Below, piece after piece: positions 1,330 through 15,498 of a stretch of DNA of 15,934 bases. The DNA is from a virus (lineage: Duplodnaviria; Heunggongvirae; Uroviricota; Caudoviricetes). Positions within the stretch are counted from its first letter, which is position 1. Each line of letters starts with the position of its first letter. The DNA lies in IMG/VR virus record IMGVR_UViG_2724679239_000005; one strand, 5' to 3'. The notes beneath the pieces were generated by a model, which saw nothing but the letters and a program-made list of their open reading frames with translations, did not search any database and was not told where the DNA came from. Made by a program: the position numbers and the translations under genes.

Positions 1330-1976
1330 ACAACATCTTGAGAAAATCGCCAATCGAACGGCTTTGTTCATCTGTATCGATTACCCCTCATGAAATGGCT
1401 GTGGCCTTGGCTGGCCTAAACCCATCTATGCGCATTAGCGATGTGCCTGAGGAAAATTTCGAATATGTCGATTTTGTCAGAACTCATCTTGCCAGAGCTA
1501 TCAAGGTGTACAGAGGTGAAAAAACTAGTAAAGACGAGCCTTGCCATGCCCTTGATATTTTCTTAGCTTCTTACCCATTTATTGACACAAATACACCAGA
1601 AATAATTGTTCAGAAAATATCAGAAGCGATTGATGATTTGCGTGGCACCAAGGGCTGGGAAGAAAAAGCCCGAAACCTTGGAGGACTCCAGTTAGTAAAC
1701 TACATCAAAGAAACCAACCGCAGCGGACGTGGGCAGCATAGAAAGCAGGATGAGGAAAACGGGACAATGAAAATGATGGGGTTGATAGTACATCTGCTGA
1801 TAAAAAAATCAGGCTCATCTTCCTACATCCAAAATGGGAAACCTAATCGCACAGCTATATACCGTGACATAGAAACCTTAATCAAGGATGAAGGGATATC
1901 CCATAAAGGAATAGCAAAAGCCACATTCCTAGAAAAAATCTCACGGGCTTTATTAGCTGTCCACGATCTCGACTAA
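1326..1976 (+). CDS. Hypothetical protein, 216 aa, GTG start overlapping the int stop (GTGA); alternative ATG start at 1395
   Basis: Six-frame ORF. 4-bp overlap with the int stop suggests translational coupling. Visibly more AT-rich than int. No motif recognised. Confidence 0.5.
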   Translation: MNNILRKSPIERLCSSVSITPHEMAVALAGLNPSMRISDVPEENFEYVDFVRTHLARAIKVYRGEKTSKDEPCHALDIFLASYPFIDTNTPEIIVQKISEAIDDLRGTKGWEEKARNLGGLQLVNYIKETNRSGRGQHRKQDEENGTMKMMGLIVHLLIKKSGSSSYIQNGKPNRTAIYRDIETLIKDEGISHKGIAKATFLEKISRALLAVHDLD

Positions 1977-2333
1977 TCACTTTTCACGCCCCTCCAAAGC
2001 AATGGCGGGGCATTACCTGTTTACCCATCTCCACCAGCATAGATAATTCTAGCCTAGCCATTGCTATATCTGTTCGGCTTAGTTCATCTGTAATCACCCC
2101 ATCTCTAAAAGATACGCCAGCTATCATTAGCCATTTTAAGCCATCATGAGCCATTATAAACCGACTCAACCAATTGAATAATAAAAGATAAAAAGAAATG
2201 TAAAAACATGATGAATGACGATGAAAGATATAACTCTTTGATAAAACAATGATTTTTTAAACTGGTAACTAATTGAAAATAAAGAAAATAATTATCCCAC
2301 CTGCATTTGCAATCTTTCAGTGGATCGGTATTT

Positions 2334-2366
2334 TTTCAATAGATTTATAATTTCTTTCAATAGATT
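2334..2366 (+). promoter_or_regulatory. Candidate operator/promoter upstream of alpA: 12-bp direct repeat TTTCAATAGATT (2334-2345, 2355-2366) flanking a TATAAT hexamer (2346-2351)
   Basis: Read directly in the very AT-rich 470-bp gap. Repeats are 21 bp apart (about two helical turns) with a consensus -10 hexamer between them. No good -35 at 17 bp. Confidence 0.3.
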
Positions 2367-2446
2367 CTAGTCTTAATAGAAATACTGTATGGGCAACCAC
2401 TAAACTTTAAGTAACTTCATGAGCTATCAGAGAGGTTACTAGAGAT

Positions 2447-2665
2447 ATGACAGCACACAAGCCAGCATCATCAGCTATCCCAACAACTGGATACATCCGT
2501 CGCTTTCGCATGCCGGAATTGCTAGGTGTTTCACTGCCTACTATTGATAGATGGGTTAAAAATGGCACTCTTCCACGCCCAGTGAAGCTAACAGATAACG
2601 TGACTGCGTTTGATGCGGTGGAAATTAATAACTGGCTGGCAGAACGCCGCGGGAAGGTGGCCTGA
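2447..2665 (+). CDS. alpA: AlpA/Vis-family phage transcriptional regulator (small HTH, excision activator type)
   Basis: 72 aa. Segment MPELLGVSLPTIDRWVKNGTLPRPVKL matches the AlpA-family helix-turn-helix pattern. RBS AGAGG/GAGAT upstream of ATG 2447. Position after int and before the replication genes is typical. Confidence 0.85.
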   Translation: MTAHKPASSAIPTTGYIRRFRMPELLGVSLPTIDRWVKNGTLPRPVKLTDNVTAFDAVEINNWLAERRGKVA

Positions 2666-3096
2666 TGGAAAAGAAAAACCGCCCATTACAGGCGGCTAAT
2701 TCAGATATTCGCGTATCTGATGTTACGCCCCTTACAAAATCCCTTCAAGCACCAAAGCGCACACCGAAAAAGCATCGTGCCAGAGTCTATATGCTGCGTA
2801 CTGGTATAGAGGGATGGACAGAAAATGACATTCTTCGCTACTGCCGTCTGTCTTCTGGTCGTAACTATGCAACAGAGTTAGAACGCCAGCTTGGAATCAC
2901 TCTGGAGCGTATCGACGAAAAGAATCCTGATGGTATCGGAACACACCTTCGCTACCGTTTCTCCTGCCGTGGTGATGTTCTGAAAGTGATCACTCATGTT
3001 AACCATCTTGCGAACATAAATGATCACAACGGACTTTCTCAGCAGGAAATTGCCGACATTCTGAAACTCTACCCGAACGCGTTTAACGCCGCCTAA
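2665..3096 (+). CDS. Hypothetical protein, 143 aa, basic N-terminus
   Basis: ORF start overlaps the alpA stop by 1 nt (TGATG), indicating coupling. No recognisable motif. Confidence 0.6.
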   Translation: MEKKNRPLQAANSDIRVSDVTPLTKSLQAPKRTPKKHRARVYMLRTGIEGWTENDILRYCRLSSGRNYATELERQLGITLERIDEKNPDGIGTHLRYRFSCRGDVLKVITHVNHLANINDHNGLSQQEIADILKLYPNAFNAA

Positions 3097-3108
3097 CGGA
3101 GACTGAAA

Positions 3109-3942
3109 ATGAACATCGAAAAAAGCAGATTAATTTCTGAGGCCGCCCCTCATCTGAACGCCTCTCTGGGCACAATTAACGGTAATGAATTTGCCGCAAT
3201 TGTCCCGGTTATTCCTGGTCATATCGGTGGGCGTGAAACCAATATTGTTAGCGCAAAAGCGTTACACAAAGCGTTGGGCGTGGGAAAAGACTTCTCTACA
3301 TGGATCACTGATCGCATCTCTGAATATGACTTCACCATTGGGCACGATTACTCAGTCCATAAAACAATTTCCCCAAATTTGGGGAAAAGCCCGAATGGCG
3401 CGGCTTACAGCAAGATTAAGCAGTCTGGCAGACCCGGCAAAGACTATCTGTTAAGTGTCGGAATGGCGAAAGAACTGGCAATGATCGAACGCAATGATCA
3501 GGGTCGCGCTATCCGTCGTTATTTCATCCAGTGCGAGGAAGAATTACAGCGTAGCGTGCCTGAAATCGCCGCCCGCTATCGTCGCCAGCTAAAAGCCCGT
3601 ATCAGTGCCGCAAACAACTTTAAGCCAATGTGCGATGCGCTGAATATGGCCCGTGCCGAGACGGGGAAAACGACGCAGCAACACCACTACACAAACGAGA
3701 GCAATATGATTTCTCGTATCGTTCTTGGTGGGCTAACTGCTAAGCAGTGGGCGCGGATAAATGGCTATTCTGGCGAACCTCGCGACCATATGAACGCAGA
3801 ACAGCTTGAGCACCTCTCATATCTCGAAAGCACCAATATCACGTTAATTGATATGGGCATGGAATATGAGCAGCGCAAAGGAGAACTCACCCGCCTGTCG
3901 CAACGCTGGCTCGCCAAGCGTCTGGAGGCGGTCCATGTTTAA
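3109..3942 (+). CDS. Phage antirepressor-like protein with AntA/AntB-type N-terminal domain
   Basis: 277 aa. Motifs SAKALHKALGVGKDFSTWITDRISEYDF and KDYLLSVGMAKELAMIERNDQGRAIRRYFIQCEEEL match the AntA antirepressor domain signature (V.ARDLH...GKDFSTWI...DY.LT.DMAKELAMVER...R.YFI). SD CGGAG 7 nt before the ATG. Confidence 0.75.
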   Translation: MNIEKSRLISEAAPHLNASLGTINGNEFAAIVPVIPGHIGGRETNIVSAKALHKALGVGKDFSTWITDRISEYDFTIGHDYSVHKTISPNLGKSPNGAAYSKIKQSGRPGKDYLLSVGMAKELAMIERNDQGRAIRRYFIQCEEELQRSVPEIAARYRRQLKARISAANNFKPMCDALNMARAETGKTTQQHHYTNESNMISRIVLGGLTAKQWARINGYSGEPRDHMNAEQLEHLSYLESTNITLIDMGMEYEQRKGELTRLSQRWLAKRLEAVHV

Positions 3943-4117
3943 GCCGACAGGAACACCACAACCCCAAAAACGCTACAAAGATGCCCACGGAGCACTCGTT
4001 ACTGTCGAAAGCGTGTCTCACAACCGAGTGACGTTTTATCGCGACGGGTATCAATCGCCATGCGTACAACCGCTGGCACGTTTCATGAAGGAGTTCGCGG
4101 AGGTTAACAAATGCTAA
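3935..4117 (+). CDS. Small hypothetical protein, 60 aa (MFKPTGTPQPQKRYKDAHGALVTVESVSHNRVTFYRDGYQSPCVQ...), possibly DUF4222-like
   Basis: Strong SD GGAGG (3924-3928) 6 nt before ATG 3935. Start overlaps the end of the upstream gene. Domain assignment is from memory and tentative. Confidence 0.5.
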   Translation: MFKPTGTPQPQKRYKDAHGALVTVESVSHNRVTFYRDGYQSPCVQPLARFMKEFAEVNKC

Positions 4118-5187
4118 CCGCCCAGAAGAAGATGTTTTCACTGGCTGGTATGTCGCCAAAATCCAGCAATATGACAGCAAAGTCAGACATTAATACAGCA
4201 GATACAAGCAAAGTTTATCATTTGCTGGTGGTAGGAGCGGGTGCCTTAACTATGTCAGAAATTACGGTCGATGGTGTTAGCGTTGAGAAGGTCAGCGGCT
4301 GCGCCAGAGAATTTCTGGTCGTAGATGACCTGTTCTGCTCGTGTAGTGACTCCACAAAAACATTCGTCCACGCGCGTGACGTTAACGAAATGAGCGCGAT
4401 GTACTGTGCATCTGGTGCTTCCAATAGCGAGTTTTCGGAGTCCATAAAAAAGAGCTTGCCGTTATGCGGCAACACGGTTTATGGTTATAAGGCACCTCAT
4501 AAAACGGGTGCCGGGATTGGCGTCCTGGTAAATCGAATGGCGACATATGACGCGCCGAGCGTCTTTTTTTATGTCGTAGGTCTGACTCACCCATTTTTTG
4601 GGCGTTGGTGTATAATCCAGCGCCTTTGTCAATCAATGGTGGCTCAGGCAGGGGCTTCTTCGGAAGCGCCGGTATCCATTCGAGCCGGTTACGCCAACCC
4701 TGTCTGGGCTACCACCAGCGAAATTGGCGTTTCCGGTGGTAGCGTTACATGCTATCGAATGGAGGCTGCCACATGCTGGCTACTACCCCTACCCAAAAAC
4801 CGCAATTTATCTGGATTATCGCCGCAGTTCGCCGCGATTGCCCGACAATTACCGCCAAAATTCATCATATTGCTGCCGAGTCTGAACGCGATGCTCGCCG
4901 TTCTCTGGTGCGCGATCACGTCTGCTTTTTTGCTGGTCGTATCCGCATGGAGGTGGCACATGATTAAAACCTACGATGTGCATATGGATCCCCTCGAACG
5001 CACAAGCCAGATCATCACACTGACAGAAGTGATTAACGACATTCTGGTGAGCAACTCTCCCTCACGAGACGAAAGACTGAAGGCGTTACTCGCGATATTG
5101 GATCTCGCCGTTCGTGACGTTCATTTCCTGCTGGAAGGTGGCGAAATGCCAGGAAAAACGGGGGCAACCAATGAAGAACTCAATTAA
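4111..5187 (+). CDS. Ash-family-like open frame (358 codons), true 3' extent uncertain; overlaps the Icd-like gene in another frame
   Basis: Strong SD GGAGG (4099-4103) 7 nt before ATG 4111. Contains a segment resembling the Ash-family signature ([26 protein letters not shown]). The frame stays open to 5187 and there are long shadow ORFs on both strands, so the coding extent is doubtful. Confidence 0.35.
4773..4967 (+). CDS. Host cell division inhibitor Icd-like protein, 64 aa
   Basis: Strong SD GGAGG (4761-4765) 7 nt before ATG 4773. Sequence [14 protein letters not shown]...[11 protein letters not shown]...FAGRI resembles Icd-like proteins of P1/P4-type elements as I recall them. Confidence 0.5.
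   Translation: MLATTPTQKPQFIWIIAAVRRDCPTITAKIHHIAAESERDARRSLVRDHVCFFAGRIRMEVAHD
4960..5187 (+). CDS. Small hypothetical protein, 75 aa; in-frame internal start of the 358-codon frame
   Basis: Strong SD GGAGG (4949-4953) 6 nt before ATG 4960. Overlaps the Icd-like stop (ATGATTAA). Confidence 0.3.
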   Translation: MIKTYDVHMDPLERTSQIITLTEVINDILVSNSPSRDERLKALLAILDLAVRDVHFLLEGGEMPGKTGATNEELN

Positions 5188-5365
5188 TACCCCTCGCCTT
5201 ACGTCCGCACTTCAATTAATCGAGCAAGCAGCGGCTGTCCTGGTTGCTGTCAGTCTTTCGGCTGAAGAAATGGACGCTGCTGATGTCGTGGATGCGATTA
5301 AAGCGTGCTCATCTTTGGTTAACGATGCCCGTGCCGAGCTGGTAATTCTTGGGGGTGAAAAATGA
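5171..5365 (+). CDS. Small hypothetical protein, 64 aa ([24 protein letters not shown]...)
   Basis: ATG 5171 preceded by a G-rich SD-like stretch. Stop overlaps the next start (ATGA at 5362-5365). Confidence 0.45.
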   Translation: MKNSINTPRLTSALQLIEQAAAVLVAVSLSAEEMDAADVVDAIKACSSLVNDARAELVILGGEK

Positions 5366-5625
5366 ATATCAACTTAATTTATCGTCATCCGTGTGAGCTG
5401 GAAATTGAATCATTGCTGGGGCGCGAAGAGCCATATCCAGACACATTCACTCCCGCAGATTGCGCGACTGAACGGCTTACCAGAGCGCGCACAGGTCTGG
5501 TTCATGTGATGAATGAGATTATTCCCTCGGTGGGAGGGGAACAGGCGACAGTAATCAATAGCTGGCTACAAAAAGTTACCTCCCTGATAGATATCAGTTT
5601 AATCGATGTGGAGAGTGCGAAATGA
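5362..5625 (+). CDS. Hypothetical protein, 87 aa
   Basis: ATGA start/stop overlaps at both ends. SD GGGGGTGA upstream. Confidence 0.55.
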   Translation: MNINLIYRHPCELEIESLLGREEPYPDTFTPADCATERLTRARTGLVHVMNEIIPSVGGEQATVINSWLQKVTSLIDISLIDVESAK

Positions 5626-5843
5626 CCAACATCCAGCTCATTGAAGCGCAATGTCGCATCGAACAGGTTCAGACTGTTTTAGGGTTCTGGCTTGAAGGGG
5701 CCAGCCCCAGCAACAGAGACAAGTTAATGATTGGCGCGGTTATGTCACTGCTCAATGGCGTACCAGAAGCTATTCAGGAAGCAGACGAATTGTTGGGCAA
5801 ATATGAGTTACAGAATCATTCAGGCGAGGCGAAACATGAATAA
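5622..5843 (+). CDS. Hypothetical protein, 73 aa
   Basis: ATGA overlap with the upstream ORF. Its stop overlaps the next start. Confidence 0.55.
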   Translation: MTNIQLIEAQCRIEQVQTVLGFWLEGASPSNRDKLMIGAVMSLLNGVPEAIQEADELLGKYELQNHSGEAKHE

Positions 5844-6438
5844 TTTCTTAACCTTCCATGCAGAAGCAACGCCTGACGGCATAAACATCATGCACCGCAG
5901 CAACGATGGCATGACAGAACGCGTTGAGACCGTCTCATATATTGATGCCGTAAATCGTCTGGATGCCGGGGATTATGACGATAAACCAGATGAAGGCATG
6001 TTTATACATCTCGCTATTGCCAGTGGCGGCAACCAGGGATATTTCGATTACACATCACAGCATCACGTGATTATGTGGCGCTGGCTGATAGCAACAGCAT
6101 TCATCAATGAAATGAGAAAGGAAAACGGCACCGTCAGCATTATTGATGACAGTGGCAATCATTCCGTGGTTTCTGTTTATTCCAATGGCATCGTCGCCAT
6201 GCCGCTGTATCCAGTAGCAGAGCGCCTCGCTATGGCAAACAACATTGAGGGCGCAATGATCGAGAAATATGGTGTTGATGTCGGAACAAAGAATGCCATC
6301 ATTTTTTACAGCAACATGTTCGATGTCGAACAGGGAACACTCACTTCGTTTGGGCGAGAAGTGCTTGCCGATCTTCACAACAGCTTTATTGCCGAACTAA
6401 ACGAAAACGGCATCCCAGAAGCACCAGTGACGCACTAA
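5836..6438 (+). CDS. Hypothetical protein, 200 aa, immediately upstream of the primase
   Basis: ATG 5836 lies inside ATGAATAA, overlapping the upstream stop. Same frame as the 5731 ORF in the track. No motif recognised. Confidence 0.6.
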   Translation: MNNFLTFHAEATPDGINIMHRSNDGMTERVETVSYIDAVNRLDAGDYDDKPDEGMFIHLAIASGGNQGYFDYTSQHHVIMWRWLIATAFINEMRKENGTVSIIDDSGNHSVVSVYSNGIVAMPLYPVAERLAMANNIEGAMIEKYGVDVGTKNAIIFYSNMFDVEQGTLTSFGREVLADLHNSFIAELNENGIPEAPVTH

Positions 6439-6450
6439 ACGGGGGCCAGA

Positions 6451-8802
6451 ATGCGAAACATTGATCTTATCCGTCAGGTTATCAGTGCGTCTGAAAACAA
6501 CTGGCCTCATGTGCTGGGCTGCCTGAACATAAATGTCCCTGACTCTCCGCGCCGTCATGCTCCCTGCCCTGCATGTGGGGGCAAAGATCGATTCCGGTTC
6601 GATGACAACGGGCGCGGTAGCTTCATCTGTAATCAGTGCGGCGCTGGTGATGGGCTGGATTTAATTAAACGCGTAAATAACTGCGACACAACAGAGGCGG
6701 CGCTTCTTGCCGCTGATGTTCTGGGTATTGATTACCGGACAACGGAAACACCAGAAGCCACCAGCCAGAAACGGGAACAACTGGAAGCCGAGCGCCAGCG
6801 ACGCGAACAGGAGCGCCTGAAAAGGGCAGAGAAGGACGAACAACAAAGACGGGATACGTTTTCCCGTCAGTTTGATGACATGCGCAGAAAGGCTGTAAAC
6901 GGCAAATCTGATTATCTGGTTGCGAAAGGGGTAGGTGATTTTACATTCCCCGTGTTGCCAGATGGATCTCTATTGCTGGCGCTGGTGGATAAATCCGGCG
7001 CAGTCACCGCAGCACAGACTATTACCTCACATGGTGAAAAAAGACTCCTGACAGGTTCGGCAAAGCGGGGGGCATATCACGCCATAAACGCACAGAAACG
7101 ACCTCACAGCATCATAATTGCTGAGGGGGTGGCTACCGCCCTGTCGTGCCATTTAATTCGCCCTGACGCAATGACAGTGGCAGCAATCGACGCTGGCAAC
7201 CTGTTGCCAGTAGCGGAAGTCATGCGCAGAACATATCCACAGGCACAAATCATCATTGCCGCAGATAACGATCACCAGCAAGGAAACTCCGAAAGTGGAG
7301 GGATCAACACGGGGAAAGATGCCGCAGAGAGGGCCGCTATTTCCGTAGCTGGCTGGGTGTCTCTGCCACCGACTGACTATAAAGCCGACTGGAACGACTA
7401 TCACCAACAACACGGGCTGGCGGCAGCCACAGCAGCATTTAAAGATTCGATGTACCAGCCACGGGGGAAAGGGGCGCAGGTGAAAAATCACAAACAGTCA
7501 GTCGGGGCGCTGAATGAGATCAGTTCTGGCGAGGTGTTAAGCGATGATGAAATTGCTGTCCTCGAAGAAATCAACCGGACGTTTACGCATGTCACCATCG
7601 GCGGGAAACACAAGGTGGTGTCGCTAAAGCCTTCTCAAACCGGCGGTGTATCGCACGTTTTCGAGGATTTATCACAATTTCAGCATTATTTTCATCATAA
7701 ACCGAGAGTCGCCAGAAAGCTGGCGGGATCGGCGTGGCTGTCATGGAGTGGGAAGAACTACAAGCCAGGAGGCGTAGGATTTTATCCAGTACCAGACAAA
7801 TGCCCTGACGATGTTTTTAATCTGTATGAGGGGCTGGCACTGGAACCAATTGAAGGAGATTGCACGGTATACCTTAATCACCTGTTGCAGGTTGTCTGTG
7901 CCGGTAATGAGGAGGCATACCAATATCTTATCCAGTGGATGGCGCACATTATCCAAAAGCCTGATGAAAAACCGTCCGTGGCAATCGTGATGAAATCTGT
8001 CCCGGGCACAGGGAAAGGCACAACGGTTAAACCGCTGCTGCAAATACTGGGGCAGTACGCCGCCCACATTAACGGGGCGGGACATATTTCAGGGCGCTTC
8101 AATTCAATACTTGCTAACAAGCTACTGGTATTTGCTGACGAAGTGACGATCCACAAGCCGTCTGAAGCTGACAGACTTAAAGCGATTATTAGCGAACCGA
8201 CGTTTAACCTTGAGCGCAAGGGAATTGATGCTGAACCAATGCCGAATTTTGCCCGGTTGATATTTGCCAGTAACAGCACACAGGTATTACAGGCAGGGAT
8301 AAGAGAGCGTCGCTATCTCGTGCTTGAGCCATCTCCTGAAAAAGCACAGAGTCGGGAGTATTTTGATCGGCTGTACAGTTGGCTTAATGATGGCGGTGCC
8401 GCAAAGTTGCTTTGGCATCTTAAAGGGGTGGATCTCTCAGGTTTTGACCCTCAACGAGCGCCACAGACCGATGCCTTACGTGAAGAAATCTTGCTGGGGC
8501 TGTCTGGCGTTGAATTGTTTCTTTATGGCGAGCTAATCAATGAACCTCCGTTTAATGGCGAAGTCCGTTTGTTTGCAAAGGATATGGTTAGTCGATTTGT
8601 AGCGTGGTCGCTTGAGCGTGGGGAAAAGCTTAAAGAGCCAGCAGCCAGATCACTACTGGGTAAATCACTTGCACAAATGGGGCTGGTGAAGCATGGAAGA
8701 CCAGACCGAGGGAATGGCGTGTTCTACGAACTACCAGAGGTCGGAGTTCTACAGGCTGCGTTTGCCCGTCTGATCGGTATGGGGGGTTATGATGTTTTTT
8801 AA
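6451..8802 (+). CDS. Phage/plasmid primase-helicase, P4 alpha-like (Zn-ribbon, TOPRIM primase, C-terminal P-loop helicase domain)
   Basis: 783 aa. N-terminal Cys4 motif CPACGGKDRFRF...FICNQCG; TOPRIM-like acidic motifs IIIAEGVATA and IIIAADNDHQ; P-loop-like MKSVPGTGKGTT and Walker-B-like LLVFADEV. SD GGGGG 5 nt before ATG 6451. Confidence 0.92.
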   Translation: MRNIDLIRQVISASENNWPHVLGCLNINVPDSPRRHAPCPACGGKDRFRFDDNGRGSFICNQCGAGDGLDLIKRVNNCDTTEAALLAADVLGIDYRTTETPEATSQKREQLEAERQRREQERLKRAEKDEQQRRDTFSRQFDDMRRKAVNGKSDYLVAKGVGDFTFPVLPDGSLLLALVDKSGAVTAAQTITSHGEKRLLTGSAKRGAYHAINAQKRPHSIIIAEGVATALSCHLIRPDAMTVAAIDAGNLLPVAEVMRRTYPQAQIIIAADNDHQQGNSESGGINTGKDAAERAAISVAGWVSLPPTDYKADWNDYHQQHGLAAATAAFKDSMYQPRGKGAQVKNHKQSVGALNEISSGEVLSDDEIAVLEEINRTFTHVTIGGKHKVVSLKPSQTGGVSHVFEDLSQFQHYFHHKPRVARKLAGSAWLSWSGKNYKPGGVGFYPVPDKCPDDVFNLYEGLALEPIEGDCTVYLNHLLQVVCAGNEEAYQYLIQWMAHIIQKPDEKPSVAIVMKSVPGTGKGTTVKPLLQILGQYAAHINGAGHISGRFNSILANKLLVFADEVTIHKPSEADRLKAIISEPTFNLERKGIDAEPMPNFARLIFASNSTQVLQAGIRERRYLVLEPSPEKAQSREYFDRLYSWLNDGGAAKLLWHLKGVDLSGFDPQRAPQTDALREEILLGLSGVELFLYGELINEPPFNGEVRLFAKDMVSRFVAWSLERGEKLKEPAARSLLGKSLAQMGLVKHGRPDRGNGVFYELPEVGVLQAAFARLIGMGGYDVF

Positions 8803-8830
8803 TATAGTCTTTTTACAAGAAGATCGTTTT

Positions 8831-8936
8831 TACCTGTACCACCTATACCACTTTGCTAATTCAGTATTAAAAACAGTGCGTTATAGTGGTACAGGTCAAT
8901 ATCTTACCTATACCAGACCTGTACCACCTATACCAT
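8831..8936. repeat. Iteron cluster A: 18-bp perfect direct repeat CCTGTACCACCTATACCA (8833-8850, 8918-8935) plus inverted copy GGTACAGG (8888-8895) and CCTATACCAG (8907-8916)
   Basis: Read directly in the 176-bp gap just after the primase stop. Candidate origin or primase-binding repeats by analogy to the P4 ori/crr octamer iterons. Confidence 0.5.
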
Positions 8937-8978
8937 TAACAAACGCATTTCTTCTGGCTGGCTGAGAGGGAACAACCA

Positions 8979-9209
8979 ATGATGAGCACACCATTTTACA
9001 AAGTGCGCCAGTTAGCTTCTTCCTCTGGCTGGCAGCTACGGTTTGAGGGGCGTTCAGACTGGCTACCCATTGCGGCATGGGCGAATGTTGAAATGTGTAT
9101 TGACGGCGATACCGTTGAAATCATTATTCCCTGCGTGGCAAGTCGGGACGGCTGTATAGAGCCAACAGATATGGCAGCAGAAATCAGAGAGGTAAAACAT
9201 GAACAATAA
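8979..9209 (+). CDS. Hypothetical protein, 76 aa
   Basis: SD GAGGG 9 nt before ATG 8979. Stop overlaps the downstream start region. Confidence 0.45.
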   Translation: MMSTPFYKVRQLASSSGWQLRFEGRSDWLPIAAWANVEMCIDGDTVEIIIPCVASRDGCIEPTDMAAEIREVKHEQ

Positions 9210-9936
9210 CTATTGCATACTGCAGGGAATGACCAGAACGGAGCGCGAAGAATTAAAAAGTTTCGCTACACAGTGCGGGAATGCTGGCGACATCCAAAGT
9301 CTGGAACGCACTTTAATTATGATTGCGCACTGGATGCGCCAGGGGCAAAGAGTTTCATTTACTGAATATGCCAGCCAGTGGACAGAGGCACAGCGCGAAC
9401 GGAGCGACGGTAATCACTCAACACCCGAAATGGCGAAGCAATGGCCTTTCAGTGGTAAACGCTGTATCAGTCCCGGTGGTTCAGATTATTACCCTGCTGG
9501 TGTGGGAGATGAGCCATGTTGTGACGAGACTGAAATCCGCCACGCAGTGACAGTAATTACCGCTGAATACCCACAATTTAACCTTGACGGACTGGCGCTC
9601 CACAACCGGAATGCGGACTGGGAAAACCCGCTTGATAACCCGTCATTTATCGTATCGGCGAAAAGCTGCCTGAGATGGATCAGAGACAACGGGATGAGTA
9701 ATGCCCAGATTGAGAGCTTCCCGCAGGATAACCCCACATCTGACACGTTGAAGCATGAAGTGGAGCGATATAACCAGATAAACCACCAGCACAGTGATCA
9801 CCCGCACTATATCCCCAACGGAGCATTTATTGCGGCGATGGTGGCAAGCGGCTACAAGGTTAAGCCAGCGGGAAGAATGAACGCATTTTTCAATATTTCA
9901 AAAAAGGGATTATGTGCTGCTATGGGTAAAAATTAA
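9199..9936 (+). CDS. Hypothetical protein, 245 aa, Cys/His-containing
   Basis: SD AGAGAGG 6 nt before ATG 9199. No motif recognised. Confidence 0.55.
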   Translation: MNNNYCILQGMTRTEREELKSFATQCGNAGDIQSLERTLIMIAHWMRQGQRVSFTEYASQWTEAQRERSDGNHSTPEMAKQWPFSGKRCISPGGSDYYPAGVGDEPCCDETEIRHAVTVITAEYPQFNLDGLALHNRNADWENPLDNPSFIVSAKSCLRWIRDNGMSNAQIESFPQDNPTSDTLKHEVERYNQINHQHSDHPHYIPNGAFIAAMVASGYKVKPAGRMNAFFNISKKGLCAAMGKN

Positions 9937-9940
9937 ATAA

Positions 9941-10046
9941 ATGGTACAGGTCTGTACAGGTGGGGAGAGGTCATTTTTACCCACCTGTACCACCTGCAGG
10001 CCGCGCCACACAAGGGTTTGTGACATGGTGGTACAGGTGGTACAGC
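9941..10046. repeat. Iteron cluster B: GGTACAGG (9943-9950), TGTACAGGTGG (9953-9963), inverted CCACCTGTACC (9981-9991), tandem GGTGGTACAGGTGGTACAG (10027-10045)
   Basis: Read directly. Includes an inverted repeat TACAGGTGG / CCACCTGTA (9955-9963 and 9981-9989) and the same core as cluster A. Confidence 0.5.
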
Positions 10047-10410
10047 AAAAACAGCGATTTTCTTTATAAGGTATGTTTTGCTCATCTGGCAGACGGAGGT
10101 ATTCGCTGCGGTTTGGCACATAGCCCAGAACAGCAAAGAGTTTTACGAGACTTTTGTAAAATCCAGTGTACAAGGGCGTGACGTTTTTGAAGGTGAGCAC
10201 TACGAAATTTTCGTAGTTCAAAAAATAGCCTCTGAGATGTTGTTATGCCTGTTCAGCAAACCATCCGCATAGCTGATCGCGAATCAAATTACCAATGGAG
10301 CCAGAAGCAAGGGCAGAACTGGAAAGCGCCTGCCGTGAAGAGTAATGCGACTCCATAAATATAGTTTTTAGAGTCCATAAAAAAACTGTCAAAACCTGAC
10401 ATACAGAACG

Positions 10411-10538: not shown

Positions 10539-10712
10539 ATGGCTATTTCAGTAAAGCCAGTATTGATAAGTGAGAAGCAAATGGAAGCGATAAAGAAAAT
10601 TCAGGAGGAGCAGCGTAAAAAATCAGAGGTAGGAGTTGCGCCAACGATCCACGAAATTGCTCGGGGATTAATGGATAAGGCGCTGGCTTACACTTTAACT
10701 GGACGTGGGTAA
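10539..10712 (+). CDS. Small protein, 57 aa, possible ribbon-helix-helix DNA-binding regulator
   Basis: Not in the supplied ORF track; translated by hand as MAISVKPVLISEKQMEAIKKIQEEQRKKSEVGVAPTIHEIARGLMDKALAYTLTGRG. SD AAGGGGG 4-5 nt before the ATG. Short strand-helix-helix pattern compatible with RHH; the fold is inferred. Confidence 0.4.
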   Translation: MAISVKPVLISEKQMEAIKKIQEEQRKKSEVGVAPTIHEIARGLMDKALAYTLTGRG

Positions 10713-10716
10713 ATTT

Positions 10717-12060
10717 ATGGCTACGTGGCAACAGGGTATTAATTCTGGTGGTTTTCTGGCTGGCATCGGTGCGCAAAATGAGAATGCGCCAAAGGCAAGC
10801 GACATTAACGCAACGCTTGGTCTGATCCGCGAAAACAATGAACTGGCTCGCTCAGGTGCAAATAACGTTGCTCTGACAGGTCTTCGTGGTCTGGCTGGAG
10901 TTGCTGACATTTATAAGCAGCAGCAACAGCAGGAACGTAAAGCGGCATTCCAGAAAGGTTATGCAGATGCTTATGCGTCCGGTGACAGGGAGCAGATGCG
11001 TAATCTTATTACAGCATTCCCAGAAGAGTTTGAGGAAGTCCGTAAAGGGATGAGTTATGTCGATGATGCTCAAAGGGATGATTATGGCAATCTGGCGCTC
11101 AAAGCACAGGTAGCCTCATCGCTTGGTCAGGGCGCATTTGGCAGGTTCATGATGGATAATGAGCAGGAGATGCGTCGTTTAGGTATCCCTCCAGAAACTA
11201 TTGCTGAAATGCAGGTTAATGACCCGCAGGGCTTCCAGCATTTCGCAGGTAATCTGGCGCTGTTTTCTCTCGGTCATGAGAAGTATTTCGATATCAAAGA
11301 TCAAATGGAAGGTCGTCGACTTGAGCAAGGGCGACTGGATGAAAGTATGCGTCAGGCTGACATGGAGAACGCGAGAGGATGGGCAAATATCCAGAACGCT
11401 CAACTAGACAGGGCTCAGCGAGCACAAATTCACTCAGATGAGATGGGATTGAAGCTAATGGAGCTGGGGCAAAAAGGTAAGCCGTCAGCAGACTTAATTA
11501 AGGGATTAAATTCTGACATTACCAATTTTGGCAAAAATTATAACTCTGTCAGAGCGGCGGCAAACTCTCTGCAAGCCCTTAGCAAGGTAAATACTGGCGC
11601 TGCCCAACTTGGGATTATCTTCAACTACATGAAATCTCTTGACCCGCAGTCAGTCGTTCGTGAAGGCGAACAGGTTCAGGTAATGCGGTCTGATGGCATA
11701 TGGGGACAAATCAAAGGATACATAGACCAGCTTAATGCTGGAAACGGCCTGTCGCAGGAGGCAAAGGATAACATTGTTAACGCCGCAAAAATCAACGCCA
11801 ATGCTATGGGGCAGCAGTTTAACCAGCAGGTTGACGAGTATCTCGATACATATGGAGAAACTATTCCTCAGGGGCTAAGAAAAAGCCTTGAAAGAAGGAA
11901 AGCGAAGCTATTTGACGATGTTTCCGGGCAGCCTACATCACAGGCTGGCACTGGACAGGCAAAAGCGGCAACCGGAGGAATATCAGAAGGCGCAACGGCA
12001 ACCAACCCTAAAACTGGTCAGAAAATCATTTACAGGAACGGAAAATGGCAGCAAATGTAA
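10717..12060 (+). CDS. Hypothetical protein, 447 aa, Gly-rich N-terminus, Gln/Ala-rich with long predicted coiled-coil; alternative GTG start at 10705
   Basis: Long ORF with coding-like composition. Checked for Walker A (GxxxxGK[ST]) and common nuclease or protease motifs; none seen. Confidence 0.65.
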   Translation: MATWQQGINSGGFLAGIGAQNENAPKASDINATLGLIRENNELARSGANNVALTGLRGLAGVADIYKQQQQQERKAAFQKGYADAYASGDREQMRNLITAFPEEFEEVRKGMSYVDDAQRDDYGNLALKAQVASSLGQGAFGRFMMDNEQEMRRLGIPPETIAEMQVNDPQGFQHFAGNLALFSLGHEKYFDIKDQMEGRRLEQGRLDESMRQADMENARGWANIQNAQLDRAQRAQIHSDEMGLKLMELGQKGKPSADLIKGLNSDITNFGKNYNSVRAAANSLQALSKVNTGAAQLGIIFNYMKSLDPQSVVREGEQVQVMRSDGIWGQIKGYIDQLNAGNGLSQEAKDNIVNAAKINANAMGQQFNQQVDEYLDTYGETIPQGLRKSLERRKAKLFDDVSGQPTSQAGTGQAKAATGGISEGATATNPKTGQKIIYRNGKWQQM

Positions 12061-13238
12061 TCTTACCGGAAGGTTTTGTGCTCGATGAACAACCTGATAA
12101 CTCACAGTTTCCTGATAGTTCACAGCTTCCTGATGGTTTTGTGCTTGATGCCCAACCAGAACAGCAGCAATCACCTTTGGTTTCACCAGAGGAAAATTCC
12201 AGACAGGAAAATGTTGTTAATAATGCTAACGGTTTCGACCGTTTTATGTATGGCGTTCTCAGTGGATTGATGGATGTTGGTAAAGGTGTTGGCCTGTTTC
12301 AGGATATGACACCAGAAGAGCAAGCCGCAATTCAGTCTCTACAGCAGAAGTTAGCGGCAAAACCATCAACCGCACAAGATGTTGGTGAGTTCGTTGGACA
12401 AGCAGCGCCATTTGTTAGTGGTGGTGGGATTATTTCTCAGGTTCCCAAAGGGGCGGCAAGACTGGCTGCCGCCGCAGGGCTTGGTGCTGGAGAAGGGGCT
12501 ATTGTAGCCAATGGAACAAATAGCGATGTTGCTTCCGGCGCTGCTATTGGCGCTGTGGCTGGCCCTGTAGCCGAACTTGCTGGCCCTGCAATTAATAAAA
12601 TAGCTGGGAAATTAACCAAGAAGAATGTTTCTTCGATTCCAGATATTGAGGGGATTACTCCTGCCGAAGAGAAAATTCGTAAGTTATCTGCACAAGGCAA
12701 CCCAAATCTTGCCTCTTCGCTTGAAGGGCTAGATCTAAAACCTCAGAAAGAAATTGTTGAGGCTGCAAATAGGCTTCATGTTGATTCAGTTCTTCCTTCT
12801 CATTTATCAGGAAATGAGCAATACCAAGCTGTAGAGCAAGCCCTAAAGTCACGGACAGGATCAGCGTTAAAAGCTCAAGAAGATAAAGCAATAAGCGAAT
12901 TAGCCTCTAGTGCTGGCAAGATAATCGATGATGTTGCTGGTGCGCCAGATGCGTTAGCTATGAGCGAAAAATATATTTATCAGATAAATAGTAGAATGGA
13001 AGCACTAAAAAACCGTAGTGATCAGTTATATAAACGTGTTGATTCCGCTCTATCACCAAGAACAAAAGTCGAAGCAAATAACACAAGCACTATGCTGGAA
13101 AAAATCGCTGATGATTTAGGAGGGTGGGATAATCTTGACCCAATAGAAAAGCGAGTTTTTACAGCAATAAACCCCGGCCCAGATAGCATCCTAACGTATG
13201 CAAATTTAAACAGGCAAAGGCGTTTAGTTGGTGATTAG
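12045..13238 (+). pseudogene. N-terminal fragment (397 codons) of a roughly 705-aa gene interrupted by IS2; stop codon TAG supplied by the first bases of IS2
   Basis: ATG 12045 with SD AGGA 7 nt upstream, overlapping the end of the 447-aa gene by 16 nt. The frame runs into the IS2 left end, where TAG at 13236-13238 terminates it. Confidence 0.7.
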
Positions 13239-13326
13239 ACTGGCCCCCTGAATCTCCAGACAACCAGTATCACTTATTTAAGTGATAGTCTTAATACTAG
13301 TTTTTAGACTAGTCATTGGAGAGCAG

Positions 13327-13692
13327 ATGATTGATGTCTTAGGACCGGAGAAACGCAGACGGCGTACTACACAGGAAAAGATCGCTATTGTTCAGCAGAG
13401 TTTTGAACCGGGAATGACGGTCTCCCTTGTTGCCCGGCAACACGGTGTGGCAGCCAGCCAGTTATTTCTCTGGCGCAAGCAATACCAGGAGGGAAGTCTT
13501 ACTGCTGTGGCCGCAGGAGAGCAGGTCGTTCCTGCCTCTGAACTTGCTGCTGCCATGAAGCAGATTAAAGAACTCCAGCGCCTGCTCGGAAAAAAAACGA
13601 TGGAAAATGAACTCCTTAAAGAAGCCGTTGAATATGGGCGTGCAAAAAAGTGGATAGCGCACGCGCCCTTATTGCCCGGGGATGGGGAGTAA
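13327..13692 (+). CDS. insC: IS2 transposase OrfA (InsC), 121 aa
   Basis: [41 protein letters not shown]... is the IS2 InsC sequence. The track ORF starting at 13282 is an upstream in-frame extension. Confidence 0.9.
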
Positions 13693-14555
13693 GCTTAGTC
13701 AGCCGTTGTCTCCGGGTGTCGCGTGCGCAGTTGCACGTAATTCTCAGACGAACCGATGACTGGAAAGATGGTCGCCGCAGCCGTCACTCAGATGATACGG
13801 ATGTGCTTCTCCGTATACACCATGTTATCGGAGAGCTGCCCACGTATGGTTATCGTCGGGTATGGGCGCTGCTTCGCAGACAGGCCGAACTTGATGGTAT
13901 GCCTGCGATCAATGCCAAACGGGTTTACCGGATCATGCGCCAGAATGCGCTGTTGCTTGAGCGAAAAACCGCTGTACCGCCATCGAAACGGGCACATACA
14001 GGCAAAGTGGCCGTGAAAGAAAGCAATCAACGATGGTGCTCTGACGGGTTCGAGTTCCGCTGTGATAACGGAGAAAAACTGCGAGTCACGTTCGCGCTGG
14101 ACTGCTGTGACCGTGAGGCACTGCACTGGGCAGTCACTACGGGCGGCTTCGACAGTGAAACAGTACAGGACGTAATGCTGGGAGCGGTGGAACGCCGCTT
14201 CGGCAACGAGCTTCCGGCGTCTCCAGTAGAGTGGCTGACGGATAATGGTTCATGCTACCGGGCTAATGAAACACTCCAGTTTGCCCGGATGTTGGGGCTT
14301 GAACCGAAGAACACGGCGGTGCGGAGTCCGGAGAGTAACGGCATAGCAGAGAGCTTCGTGAAAACGATAAAGCGTGACTACATCAGTGTCATGCCTAAAC
14401 CAGACGGTTTAACGGCAGCAAAGAACCTTGCAGAGGCGTTCGAGCATTATAACGAATGGCATCCGCATAGTGCACTGGGTTATCGCTCGCCACGGGAATA
14501 TCTACGGCAGCAGGCCAGTAATGGGTTAAGTGATAACAGGTGTCTGGAAATATAG
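13650..14555 (+). CDS. insD: IS2 transposase OrfB (InsD), 301 aa; expressed as an OrfAB fusion by -1 frameshift at AAAAAAG (13644-13650)
   Basis: [23 protein letters not shown]... is IS2 InsD. GTG start at 13650 lies at the slippery heptamer. The sequence shows typical IS3-family integrase-core character. Confidence 0.9.
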
Positions 14556-14566
14556 GGGCAAATCCA

Positions 14567-15498
14567 GTGATGCCCTAAATAAAAAGCAGGGGCCATACAA
14601 AGATGCTGATAAAGAAGCGCTATCAAGACTATATGGAGCTTTAGCTGAAGACCAAAAATCTGTCTTATCCAATACTGGATACTTGCGAGATTTCGAAGTC
14701 GCACAACGCCTTGTAGCTATGAGAAAAAACTTAGAAAGGCAAATGGTAAATCTTCGCGGGAAAACACTTAATGGGGATATAGCGTATAAAGTAACGAATT
14801 CTCTTCAATCTATGGCAAAAGGTGATGCGAGAGGGTTTCGTGAGATTATGCAAAATACTCCATCAAGAACATTGCGAAGGGAGCTAGTAGGAACAGCATT
14901 AAGAGATATGCTTTCCTCTGGGAAGCGTGGGGCCGACTTTAATCCATCTGGCTTTGCAGATTGGTGGCAAAACTTGCAACACAGTGGACAGCTAAAGACT
15001 TTGGCTGAACATTTGCCAAAAGAAACAATGAGCGGACTATATGATGTATACAAAGTTGCCAGAGCAATAAAAAATGCTAAAGCGCATGAAATATCTACTG
15101 GTAAGCTGAATGAGTTTGTAAACAGATTTAATCGGGTAACAGCTCCATACGAACTAGCAGCAAAACACATTCAAAAAATAGGCACGATGGTAGGCGCTCA
15201 TTTTGGATCGCTTGGAGCCATTGCTGGGGCTGATATTGGAGCAAGATTGGCGAGTAAAGCTCGATTAGCTGGTGGAGCAGGGGCGGCTGATGCTGCGGAT
15301 AAATTAATTGCCTCGCCAGCCTTCCAGAGCGCAGTAAAAAATCTACACGGAAAAGCGCCTGGGCACATTGTTGATTCACGTATCAGGCGCTCCCCTCAAT
15401 GGAAGAGTTTTTTTAACTCTCTTCCTGAACAGGAAAAACGGACCATCGCCAGACTGGGCATCATTACTTGGCTATCTAATGATCCAGATAATGACTAG
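14567..15498 (+). pseudogene. C-terminal fragment (about 308 codons) of the IS2-interrupted gene, in frame with the N-terminal fragment once IS2 and one TSD copy are removed
   Basis: Removing 13236-14566 and one GTGAT joins ...RRLVGD to ALNKKQGPYKD... in frame. The track ORF 14530-15498 is this frame extended back into the IS2 right end. Confidence 0.65.

What the first reader, a model, noticed from the sequence alone, without database searches (positions are those of the whole stretch)
8831..8936. Iteron cluster immediately downstream of the primase: 18-bp perfect direct repeat plus inverted copies of a GGTACAGG core
CCTGTACCACCTATACCA occurs twice, 85 bp apart, with an inverted GGTACAGG between them. 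This is not CRISPR-like: the copies are in both orientations and irregularly spaced. By analogy to the short iterons bound by P4 alpha protein at ori and crr, this is a candidate origin or cis-replication region.
Basis: partly seen in the sequence, partly recalled or inferred. Interest (0 to 1): 0.5.

Follow-up and report, generated by a model that had tools for sequence, protein, structure and literature searches.

The report
Satellite replication origin beside its primase
The repeats are real and are almost certainly half of the replication origin of a phage-satellite island in E. coli, built like the origins of phage P4 and of known chromosomal islands, so it is a well-supported but ordinary kind of feature.

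Summary
The 18/19-nt repeat occurs twice, 85 bp apart, with an inverted copy between. The real unit is an 8-bp iteron, CTRTACCA. Six copies lie in 8834-8935 (module A), starting 32 nt after the primase stop codon.

The same iterons, in the same order, with the same spacing and a 34-37 bp AT-rich spacer of free sequence, follow the primase stop in most of 43 related loci from several gammaproteobacterial orders. They are 39 times denser there than elsewhere in those loci.

The iteron word follows the C-terminal half of the primase (helicase plus a predicted winged-helix domain), not its primase domain. Sister E. coli islands with the same backbone but a swapped C-half carry a different word, and the swapped cassette ends about 90 bp after module B.

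Start-to-start spacing in module A (9, 44, 21, 11, 9) matches the annotated P4 ori (10, 44, 21, 11, 10). The layout also matches the experimentally tested EcCICFT073 origin.

Verdict: this is the cognate origin of a P4/PICI-type primase-helicase, a new member of a known kind. Binding and replication remain untested. The one mildly unusual feature is that the two halves are separated by genes, as P4's ori and crr are.

The parts
6451..8802 (+). Primase-helicase (Pri-Rep / P4-alpha-like initiator), 783 aa
   Evidence: Pfam finds Zn_Ribbon_Prim, Toprim_3 and DUF5906. PHROGs calls it DNA primase. Residues 475-654 match the NrS-1 SF3 helicase domain. The N-terminal 330 aa are 33% identical to P4 alpha.
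8413..8799 (+). C-terminal domain of the primase, predicted winged helix; the candidate origin-binding domain
7473..10136 (+). Exchangeable replication cassette: primase residues about 341-783, module A, ORF76, ORF245 and module B
   Evidence: blastn against sister islands L050/L051 gives 94-96% identity up to 7472 and 98% from 10137 (L051) or 10289 (L050), with no homology in between.
8834..8850 (+). Module A, iterons 1-2 (CTGTACCA, CTATACCA), tandem with 9-bp period
   Evidence: These columns are invariant or nearly invariant in 17 loci.
8851..8886 (.). AT-rich spacer (31% GC), the presumed DNA-melting site
   Evidence: Its length is 34-37 bp in all 17 aligned loci and its sequence is not conserved. 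P4 ori has a 35-bp AT-rich spacer at the same place. Melting is an inference.
8887..8894 (-). Module A, iteron 3 (inverted; TGGTACAG on the + strand)
   Evidence: Seven of its eight columns are invariant in alignment A3.
8908..8935 (+). Module A, iterons 4-6 (CTATACCA, CTGTACCA, CTATACCA), with start-to-start spacing of 11 and 9 bp
8979..9209 (+). ORF76, a small conserved protein of unknown function that lies between the two iteron modules
   Evidence: tblastn finds homologues in the same position in L002, L007 and six Xenorhabdus loci, and in L055-L057. No family match.
9199..9936 (+). ORF245, a protein of unknown function with a winged-helix-like C-terminal part, lying between the modules
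9942..10045 (-). Module B: TGGTACAG 9942-9949 (-), degenerate CTGTACAG 9952-9959 (-), CTGTACCA 9985-9992 (+), conserved GC box CAGGCCGCGCCA 9997-10008, TGGTACAG 10029-10036 (-) and 10038-10045 (-)
   Evidence: The outer ends of A and B form a 24-nt inverted repeat, 88% complementary (I1). The homologous module directly abuts module A in L017-L021 and L058.

Best explanation
The finding is module A of a bipartite, iteron-type replication origin of an integrated phage-satellite island. The island has the layout int, alpA-like HTH, ..., primase-helicase, ori, and sits at the yicC-dinD site of E. coli.

Proposed mechanism:
1. After the island is induced and excised, the 783-aa primase-helicase recognises the 8-bp iterons CTRTACCA through its C-terminal winged-helix domain.
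2. Iterons spaced 9-11 bp apart put bound protomers on one face of the DNA helix.
3. Two tandem sites and one inverted site bracket a 36-bp AT-rich spacer, where the SF3 helicase ring is assembled and the duplex is melted.
4. The N-terminal Zn-ribbon/Toprim primase lays down primers and the host polymerase takes over.
5. Module B (9942-10045), an inverted copy of the same kind of module, is the second half of the origin. Here ORF76 and ORF245 separate it from module A, so it would act at a distance, as P4's crr does with ori.

What is shown: the repeats, their statistics, their conservation in position and spacing, their co-inheritance with the primase C-half, and their architectural identity with the P4 and EcCICFT073 origins.

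What is inferred: protein binding, which domain binds, melting at the spacer, and the need for module B.
For: 1. Enrichment. 6 + 4 strict cores lie in two stretches of 176 bp and 124 bp, against 2 in the remaining 15.6 kb. 0 of 200 shuffles reach the observed count.

2. Conservation. In 43 loci that encode homologues of the primase (34-76% identical in the best matching segment), CTRTACC occurs at 8.6 per kb in the 600 bp after the stop codon and at 0.22 per kb elsewhere, a 39-fold difference. 32 of 43 loci have at least 3 copies there. Most of the rest have degenerate ACCTRTnCC arrays with a 9-bp period directly after the stop.

3. Footprint. In a 17-locus alignment, iteron columns carry 1.74 bits and other columns 0.62 bits (P = 2e-17). 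The spacer keeps its length (34-37 bp) but not its sequence.

4. Natural swap experiment. E. coli islands L050/L051 share the backbone at 94-98% identity, and their primase N-terminus is 85% identical. Their C-half is of the DUF927 type, they contain no CTRTACC, and they carry GTTGGTTCA/TGAACCAAC iterons instead. The non-homologous cassette runs from primase residue ~341 to ~90 bp past module B.

5. Calibration with known systems. EcCIRM13514 Pri-Rep has a C-half 49% identical to P4 alpha residues 301-771 and uses the P4 word CTGTTCACC. The EcCICFT073 and Klebsiella L052 C-halves are 55% identical and both use related words ending in TCTACC (CTGTCTACC; CCTCTACC/CGTCTAC).

6. Architecture. Module A start-to-start distances are 9, 44, 21, 11, 9. 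The annotated P4 ori type-1 repeats give 10, 44, 21, 11, 10, with a 35-bp AT-rich spacer. EcCICFT073, whose pri-rep-ori segment drives plasmid replication and fails when ori is deleted, has a similar set of direct and inverted iterons in two mirror-image halves (PMC6092414).

7. The C-terminal 129 aa are predicted to form a winged helix.
Against: - There is no experimental evidence for binding or replication in this family.
- Module B's internal spacers are not AT-rich in the window, and it contains a conserved GC box of unknown role.
- ORF245, inside the origin, also has a winged-helix-like domain and could be a second binder.
- A few loci (L042, L024) show little or nothing of the motif.
- Three viral contigs carry modules with no primase of this family in the DNA fetched.
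Confidence: 0.85

Rival explanations
1. The repeats are operator sites for a transcription factor that controls the downstream genes or primase read-through, not an origin. Candidates are ORF245, the AlpA-like HTH protein, or the primase acting as an autoregulator.
For: The cluster lies in the gap between the primase and ORF76. No terminator follows the primase, so transcription probably reads through. ORF245 has a winged-helix-like domain. Initiator-binding sites often double as regulatory sites (general knowledge).
Against: The iterons persist where ORF76 and ORF245 are absent and the downstream genes differ (L017-L030, L039, L058). Sister islands with the same upstream genes (AntA, DUF4222, Ash and four small ORFs within the 3 kb fetched) but a different primase C-half have a different word. 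No promoter-like site lies in or next to the cluster. The layout equals that of functionally defined origins.
Confidence: 0.07
2. Modules A and B are the terminal inverted repeats, with sub-terminal binding sites, of a small mobile or invertible cassette that carries ORF76 and ORF245.
For: The outer ends form a 24-nt inverted repeat, 88% complementary, flanking exactly two ORFs (I1). Several repeated sites at each end recall Tn7- or Mu-type transposon ends (general knowledge).
Against: A and B are directly adjacent, with no gene between them, in many loci (L017-L021, L058). In Xenorhabdus only ORF76 lies between them and ORF245 lies outside. Neither ORF has a recombinase or transposase signature. 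Module A is always fixed 20-30 nt after the primase stop.
Confidence: 0.03
3. The repeats are a structural DNA or RNA element formed by the inverted copies, such as a hairpin, a terminator or a packaging site.
For: As single-stranded DNA, 8826-8945 folds better than its shuffles (z = -3.8), because of the 12-nt perfect inverted pair 8886-8897/8916-8927.
Against: The pairing is a by-product of using one word in both orientations. No T-run follows it, no terminator was called on it, and there is no Rfam match. Conservation falls on the 8-bp words and their spacing, not on compensatory pairing.
Confidence: 0.03

Closest known systems
Bacteriophage (satellite) P4 ori and crr with the alpha primase-helicase
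   Same: Short iterons in both orientations are recognised by a multifunctional primase/SF3-helicase/origin-binding protein. One iteron region lies directly 3' of the initiator gene (P4 crr at 4291-4590, after alpha at 4636-6969). There are two separated iteron regions. The six-iteron module has the same geometry: 2 tandem, a 35-bp AT-rich spacer, 1 inverted, then 3 tandem, with spacings of 10, 44, 21, 11, 10 against 9, 44, 21, 11, 9 here. The N-terminal primase domains are homologous (33% identity, E = 1e-40). A 49%-identical relative of this primase sits in a P4-like satellite of Citrobacter (L058).
   Different: The iteron word is CTRTACCA, not (C)TGTTCACC. The helicase and C-terminal halves show no BLASTP similarity to alpha. 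The ori-type six-iteron module, not a crr-type repeat, is the one next to the gene. The modules are 1.1 kb apart rather than 4.5-5 kb. The island lacks sid, psu and delta and has the int-alpA layout of PICIs.
Replication origins of Gram-negative phage-inducible chromosomal islands (EcCICFT073, EcCIRM13514; Fillol-Salom et al. 2018, PMC6092414)
   Same: The gene order is int, alpA..., pri-rep, ori. The integration locus is the same as EcCIRM13514 (yicC-dinD). [quoted passage not shown] EcCICFT073 shows a similar arrangement of direct and inverted iterons in two mirror-image halves. Close relatives (L055-L057) carry SSB, PerC and ProQ genes after the origin, as those PICIs do.
   Different: The Pri-Rep allele is different: Zn-ribbon/Toprim plus DUF5906, 783 aa, against 584-607 aa proteins annotated 'DNA primase family protein'. 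The iteron word is different (CTGTCTACC and CTGTTCACC in those islands). In the window the two halves are split by two genes, whereas in the two published islands read here (EcCICFT073, EcCIRM13514) they are contiguous.
SaPI / Gram-positive PICI origins
   Same: The ori lies 3' of pri/rep, and iterons flank an AT-rich melting region (as summarised in PMC6092414).
   Different: The Rep proteins, iteron words and hosts are unrelated. No sequence comparison was made here.
Iteron origins of theta plasmids (RepA/pi/RepE type)
   Same: Repeated initiator-binding sites lie next to an AT-rich region, and the initiator has a winged-helix DNA-binding domain (general knowledge).
   Different: Plasmid iterons are 17-22 bp, mostly direct and tandem, and work with DnaA boxes and host DnaB/DnaG. 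Here the sites are 8-9 bp in both orientations, the window has no DnaA box, the initiator brings its own helicase and primase, and nothing matches in the plasmid collection.

Membership tests
P4/PICI-type iteron origin (ori 3' of a primase-helicase initiator) | Lies immediately 3' of the initiator (pri-rep / alpha) gene | tested here: met
   The first iteron starts 32 nt after the stop codon. The same holds in most of 43 related loci.
P4/PICI-type iteron origin (ori 3' of a primase-helicase initiator) | Sets of short iterons, in both orientations, flanking an AT-rich region | tested here: met
   Two direct and one inverted iteron bracket a 36-bp spacer of 31% GC, and three more direct copies follow.
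P4/PICI-type iteron origin (ori 3' of a primase-helicase initiator) | Module geometry as in P4 ori and EcCICFT073 ori | tested here: met
   Start-to-start distances are 9, 44, 21, 11, 9, against 10, 44, 21, 11, 10 for the annotated P4 type-1 repeats. EcCICFT073 shows the same order of direct and inverted iterons.
P4/PICI-type iteron origin (ori 3' of a primase-helicase initiator) | Iteron word specific to the cognate initiator | tested here: met
   Four types of C-terminal half go with four words, whatever the N-terminal primase type. This is co-inheritance, not a binding test.
P4/PICI-type iteron origin (ori 3' of a primase-helicase initiator) | Initiator binds the iterons; the fragment supports initiator-dependent replication | not testable with these tools
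   This needs EMSA or footprinting and a plasmid replication assay.
P4 alpha protein family | N-terminal Zn-ribbon plus Toprim primase domain homologous to alpha | tested here: met
   BLASTP gives 33% identity over residues 7-337, E = 1e-40. Pfam finds Zn_Ribbon_Prim and Toprim_3.
P4 alpha protein family | Helicase and origin-binding halves homologous to alpha residues ~300-777 | tested here: not met
   There is no BLASTP similarity beyond residue 337. By contrast, EcCIRM13514 Pri-Rep is 49% identical to that part of alpha. The window protein has a different SF3-type module (DUF5906; NrS-1-like).
P4 alpha protein family | C-terminal winged-helix origin-binding domain like PDB 1KA8 | tested here: inconclusive
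   [not shown]
P4 alpha protein family | Recognises the type-1 octamer TGTTCACC | tested here: not met
   The word here is CTRTACCA, against P4.
Gram-negative PICI (element level) | Unidirectional int, alpA, ..., pri-rep, ori layout at a PICI attachment site | tested here: met
   Integrase at 1-1329, AlpA-like HTH at 2447-2665, then the primase and ori. In strain ACN001 the island lies between yicC and dinD, the site listed for EcCIRM13514.
Gram-negative PICI (element level) | Helper-phage induction and packaging | not testable with these tools
Theta-plasmid iteron origin | 17-22 bp direct tandem iterons, DnaA boxes and a Rep_3-type initiator | tested here: not met
   The units are 8-9 bp in both orientations. 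The window has no DnaA box, there is no plasmid match, and no Rep_3 gene was found.
CRISPR array | Regularly spaced direct repeats of 24-48 bp with unique spacers | tested here: not met
   The units are 8-9 bp, in both orientations, at spacings of 9-44 bp.

The most novel reading that the evidence does not exclude
This origin family may truly work in two parts. The two iteron modules are separable: adjacent in many elements, about 0.3 kb apart in Xenorhabdus, 1.1 kb apart here, and 4.9 kb apart with the primase between them in X. ehlersii. They would cooperate by initiator-mediated looping, as P4 ori and crr do. The genes caught between them, ORF76 and the winged-helix-like ORF245, would be origin-associated accessory or copy-control factors. 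The whole unit of helicase/DNA-binding half, module A, genes and module B would be exchanged between satellites as one specificity cassette. That would define replication-compatibility groups among co-resident satellites.
Probability: 0.25. Interest if true: 0.45.

Novelty: new member of a known kind. Interest (0 to 1): 0.3.

Why it matters
The result assigns a cognate origin, an iteron word (CTRTACCA) and a likely specificity domain to a widespread but uncharacterised primase-helicase family (Zn-ribbon/Toprim/DUF5906). Both PICI-like and P4-like satellites use this family, across Enterobacterales, Methylococcales and Alteromonadales.

It also shows, from sequence alone, that the six-iteron geometry of P4 ori is shared by PICI origins served by unrelated helicase and DNA-binding halves, and that the iteron word travels with the C-terminal half as an exchangeable cassette. 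This is useful for annotating satellites, for predicting replication compatibility between co-resident islands, and for building minimal satellite replicons. It does not reveal a new kind of mechanism.

Tried and rejected
- Megablast of the primase-ori region against the phage collection gave no match. tblastn there found only distant primases, at most 34% identity.
- phmmer of the primase against PDB sequences hit only the NrS-1 helicase domain, not P4 1KA8. ORF245 gave no hit.
- A full-text search for the P4 octamer returned only unrelated primer sequences. One literature query failed on a term that was too short.
- Rfam has no family at the repeats. There is no DnaA box, no plasmid match, and no promoter or terminator in the cluster.
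- ORF58 (8789-8965), which overlaps the repeats, was rejected as a gene. It is not annotated in RefSeq genomes. Its tblastn 'hits' only mirror the iterons. The alignment has indels of 1-3 nt that break the frame.
- The transposon-end, operator and hairpin readings were considered and rejected, as set out under the rival explanations.
- The metagenome scan, the 1.84-billion-protein representative search and covariance models were not used, because the question was settled without them.

Full report
**1. The observation**

The sequence and the repeat finder confirm the finding. ACCTGTACCACCTATACCA occurs at 8832-8850 and again at 8917-8935, 85 bp start to start, and an inverted GGTACAGG lies at 8888-8895. 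The stop codon of a 783-aa ORF (6451-8802) lies 32 nt upstream of the first iteron core (8834). Pfam finds a primase zinc ribbon, a Toprim domain and DUF5906 in that ORF, and PHROGs calls it DNA primase.

The 18-mer is really two adjacent copies of a shorter unit. Comparison with relatives (below) fixes the conserved core as the 8-mer CTRTACCA. It occurs six times: 8834-8841 (+), 8843-8850 (+), 8887-8894 (-), 8908-8915 (+), 8919-8926 (+) and 8928-8935 (+). I call this module A.

This is far more than chance. The 9-mer ACCTRTACC with up to one mismatch gives 13 hits in the window against 3.3 expected, and none of 200 shuffles reaches 13. The strict 7-mer CTRTACC occurs 6 times in the 176-bp intergenic gap but only twice in 15.6 kb outside the two clusters (Poisson P = 2e-13).

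**2.

The same search found a second cluster just after the ORF at 9199-9936:
- TGGTACAG at 9942-9949 (-);
- a degenerate copy at 9952-9959 (-);
- CTGTACCA at 9985-9992 (+);
- TGGTACAG at 10029-10036 and 10038-10045 (both -).

This module B is roughly an inverted copy of module A. The outer ends of the two modules form a 24-nt inverted repeat, 88% complementary (I1). Two ORFs lie between the modules: ORF76 (8979-9209) and ORF245 (9199-9936).

**3. Context**

The window is an integrative island of E. coli. The region is present at 95% identity or more in 130 of 5,426 complete genomes, always on the chromosome. In strain ACN001 it lies between yicC and dinD.

The genes run in one direction:
- integrase, 1-1329;
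- an AlpA-like HTH protein, 2447-2665;
- AntA and Ash-family proteins;
- the primase-helicase;
- the repeats;
- P22-type ejection proteins.

This is the int, alpA, pri-rep, ori layout described for Gram-negative phage-inducible chromosomal islands (PICIs). Table S1 of that paper lists yicC-dinD as the site of EcCIRM13514 (PMC6092414).

**4. Conservation in elements with a homologous primase**

- *Data set.* A database search gave a graded series of full-length homologues, from 91% down to about 40% identity. An alignment of 20 of them was used to fetch 46 loci from one-genome-per-species contigs. They include Buttiauxella, Xenorhabdus, Pantoea, Hafnia, Rahnella, Erwinia, Proteus, Providencia, Methylobacter/Methylomonas, Colwellia and Alishewanella.
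- *Motif position.* In most of these loci the most repeated 8-mer downstream of the primase is CTGTACCA, in both orientations.
- *Layout.* Relative to the stop codon the layout is nearly fixed: two direct copies at about +20 to +40, an inverted copy at about +72 to +87, and three direct copies at about +95 to +126.
- *Enrichment.* Pooled over 43 loci, CTRTACC occurs at 8.6 per kb in the 600 bp after the stop and at 0.22 per kb elsewhere, a 39-fold difference. 32 of 43 loci have three or more copies there.
- *Apparent exceptions.* Most still show degenerate ACCTRTnCC arrays with a 9-bp period directly after the stop, often as a compact palindrome in the marine Alteromonadales. One locus, L027, whose primase is 34% identical, uses CTGTTCC throughout.
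- *Footprint.* A 17-locus alignment shows a textbook phylogenetic footprint. Iteron columns are invariant or nearly so (1.74 bits) and the rest is free (0.62 bits; P = 2e-17). The spacer between the tandem pair and the inverted copy keeps its length (34-37 bp) but not its sequence, and is AT-rich in most loci (GC 14-51%, 0.35 or below in 12 of 17).

**5. Which gene do the repeats belong to?**

A natural swap experiment answers this. E. coli islands L050 and L051 share the window's backbone: 94-96% DNA identity over 3451-7472, and 98% from 10137 (L051) or 10289 (L050) onward. Their primase is 85% identical over the first 350 residues, but its C-terminal half is of a different type (DUF927).

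Those loci contain no CTRTACC at all. Instead they carry GTTGGTTCA x3 and TGAACCAAC x3 at a 9-bp period right after the gene.

The non-homologous cassette in the window runs from 7473 (primase residue ~341, the linker after the Toprim domain) to 10136, about 90 bp past module B. So four things are inherited as one unit: the helicase plus C-terminal half, module A, the two ORFs, and module B.

ORF76 and ORF245 cannot be the primary partners of the repeats. Many loci keep the iterons but have no homologue of either ORF (L017-L030, L039, L058).

The rule holds in known systems too:
- EcCIRM13514 Pri-Rep has a C-half 49% identical to P4 alpha residues 301-771. It uses CTGTTCACC, the P4 type-1 repeat.
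- EcCICFT073 Pri-Rep and a Klebsiella protein share a 55%-identical C-half. The Klebsiella protein's N-terminus is 75% identical to the window's. Both use related words ending in TCTACC (CTGTCTACC in EcCICFT073; CCTCTACC/CGTCTAC in Klebsiella).

That makes four C-half types and four words, whatever the primase domain.

**6. Architecture compared with defined origins**

The GenBank record of P4 annotates the alpha gene (4636-6969, minus strand), crr directly 3' of it (4291-4590) and ori (type-1 repeats at 9310-9413).

Read on the minus strand, P4 ori is: two tandem CTGTTCACC, a 35-bp AT-rich spacer, one inverted copy, about 12 nt, then three tandem copies. Its start-to-start distances are 10, 44, 21, 11, 10. 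Module A gives 9, 44, 21, 11, 9.

EcCICFT073 has a similar arrangement: two tandem iterons, an inverted copy and three more direct copies, followed by a mirror-image half. Its pri-rep-ori segment was shown to drive plasmid replication, and the plasmid fails when ori is deleted (PMC6092414).

In many relatives of the window's primase, modules A and B abut within about 215 bp (L017-L021, L058). Other arrangements also occur:
- In Xenorhabdus, only the ORF76 homologue lies between the modules, and the ORF245 homologue follows module B.
- In the window, Buttiauxella L002, E. coli L055 and Salmonella L056, both ORFs lie between them. Enterobacter L057 has the same gene order, but no module B was detected there.
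- In X. ehlersii L003, a module A copy lies 2.2 kb upstream of the primase, so A and B are 4.9 kb apart.

The two halves are therefore separable, which recalls P4's ori and crr.

**7. The protein**

Residues 475-654 match the SF3 helicase domain of the NrS-1 primase-polymerase.

BLASTP against P4 alpha aligns only the N-terminal primase domain (33% identity, E = 1e-40).

**8. Mechanism**

This part is inferred.

- The protein binds the iterons through its C-terminal domain.
- Sites 9-11 bp apart lie on one face of the DNA helix.
- The helicase assembles at the AT-rich 8851-8886 spacer and melts it.
- The protein's own primase primes synthesis.

The window contains no DnaA box, which fits a self-sufficient initiator.

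Module B would be the second half of the origin, acting at a distance. Its conserved GC box (CAGGCCGCGCCA, 9997-10008) is shared with L018, L020, L021, L055 and L058 and is unexplained.

**9. Rivals**

- *Operator sites.* These are unlikely because the motif follows the primase C-half, not the flanking genes, and no promoter lies there.
- *Transposon ends.* These are unlikely because A and B are adjacent without cargo in many loci, and the ORFs have no recombinase features.
- *A hairpin.* The single-strand fold (z = -3.8) is a by-product of one word used in both orientations. There is no T-run and no Rfam hit.
- *A gene.* ORF58, which overlaps the repeats, is not a gene.

**10. Comparison and novelty**

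The feature works like, and is built like, the P4 ori and the Gram-negative PICI ori. It passes the sequence-level criteria of that origin class. It fails membership of the P4 alpha protein family for the helicase/origin-binding half and for the iteron word.

It is thus a new member of a known kind of origin: a new Pri-Rep allele with a new iteron word. The family is widespread. A 49%-identical relative serves a P4-like satellite of Citrobacter that carries Phage_cap_P2, epsilon-like and Ogr/Delta genes.

Two mildly new points emerge:
- P4 ori shares the PICI ori geometry exactly, although the 2018 paper described that organisation as found in no other known bacterial replicon.
- The origin halves are separable and travel with the helicase/DNA-binding half as one cassette.

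**11. Verdict**

Confidence that this is the cognate origin of the adjacent primase-helicase is about 0.85. Interest is modest (0.3), because the mechanism is of a known kind. Experiments are still needed for binding, for the melting site and for the role of module B.

Noticed in passing
window 4492-4569 and 4632-4719 (+): Rfam finds an isrK Hfq-binding RNA (67 bits) and a C4 antisense RNA (79.5 bits), both above their gathering scores. They lie inside the stretch of ORF 4111-5187 that gives the Pfam 'Phage_ASH' match (residues 124-232, nt ~4480-4806). This looks like a P1 c4-type RNA immunity region next to an AntA antirepressor. It also raises the question of whether the Ash 'protein family' signal here is partly a translated RNA gene.
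   Followed up: no
window 13282-14555 (+), flanked by 12045-13238 and 14530-15498: An IS3-family insertion sequence (HTH_Tnp_1 ORF plus rve integrase-core ORF) interrupts the gene that follows the ejection-protein gene. In strain ACN001 the same gene is intact (705 aa, locus 15346-17463). In sister island L050 it matches Pfam Phage_P22_gp16.
   Followed up: partly
window 10705-13238 (+): The island carries P22-type DNA-ejection proteins (Inj_translocase, E = 2.5e-73, and a gp16-like protein) but no other virion gene in the window. This is unusual cargo for a PICI-like satellite. It could be a superinfection or helper-interference function.
   Followed up: no
window 9997-10008; also L018, L020, L021, L055, L058: A GC-rich box, CAGGCCGCGCCA, lies between the direct iteron and the terminal inverted pair of module B. 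It is conserved in distant Enterobacterales elements but replaced by AT-rich sequence in Xenorhabdus. Its role is unknown.
   Followed up: partly
L003 (Xenorhabdus ehlersii) 2686-2790 and 7624-7725: A complete module A lies 2.2 kb upstream of the primase start rather than after its stop. Module B is in its usual place after the ORF76 homologue. The two halves are therefore 4.9 kb apart with the primase between them, an arrangement like P4's ori/crr.
   Followed up: partly
[not shown]
   Followed up: partly
L060 8280-8520; L062 1940-2040; L067 1547-1607 (IMG/VR contigs): Iteron modules of the same type (ATCTGTACCA word) occur in viral contigs with no detectable primase of this family in the DNA fetched (tblastn E < 1e-5). 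They could be orphan or remnant origins, or the primase may lie beyond the fetched stretch.
   Followed up: partly
L058 (Citrobacter freundii) 1-8325: A 49%-identical primase of this family, with modules A and B adjacent after a rho-independent terminator, sits in a P4-like satellite that has Phage_cap_P2, an epsilon-like 'Derepression' gene and an Ogr/Delta gene. The same replication module therefore serves both PICI-like and P4-like satellites.
   Followed up: partly
window 8949-8962 and 9020-9033; L002; L006 7388-7420: A TTCYTCTGGCTGGC / GCCAGCCAGAAAG motif recurs just upstream of and inside the start of ORF76 and its homologues. GGCTGGCA occurs six times in L002. It may be a regulatory or recombination site. 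In L003 it lies at the apparent rearrangement junction.
   Followed up: no
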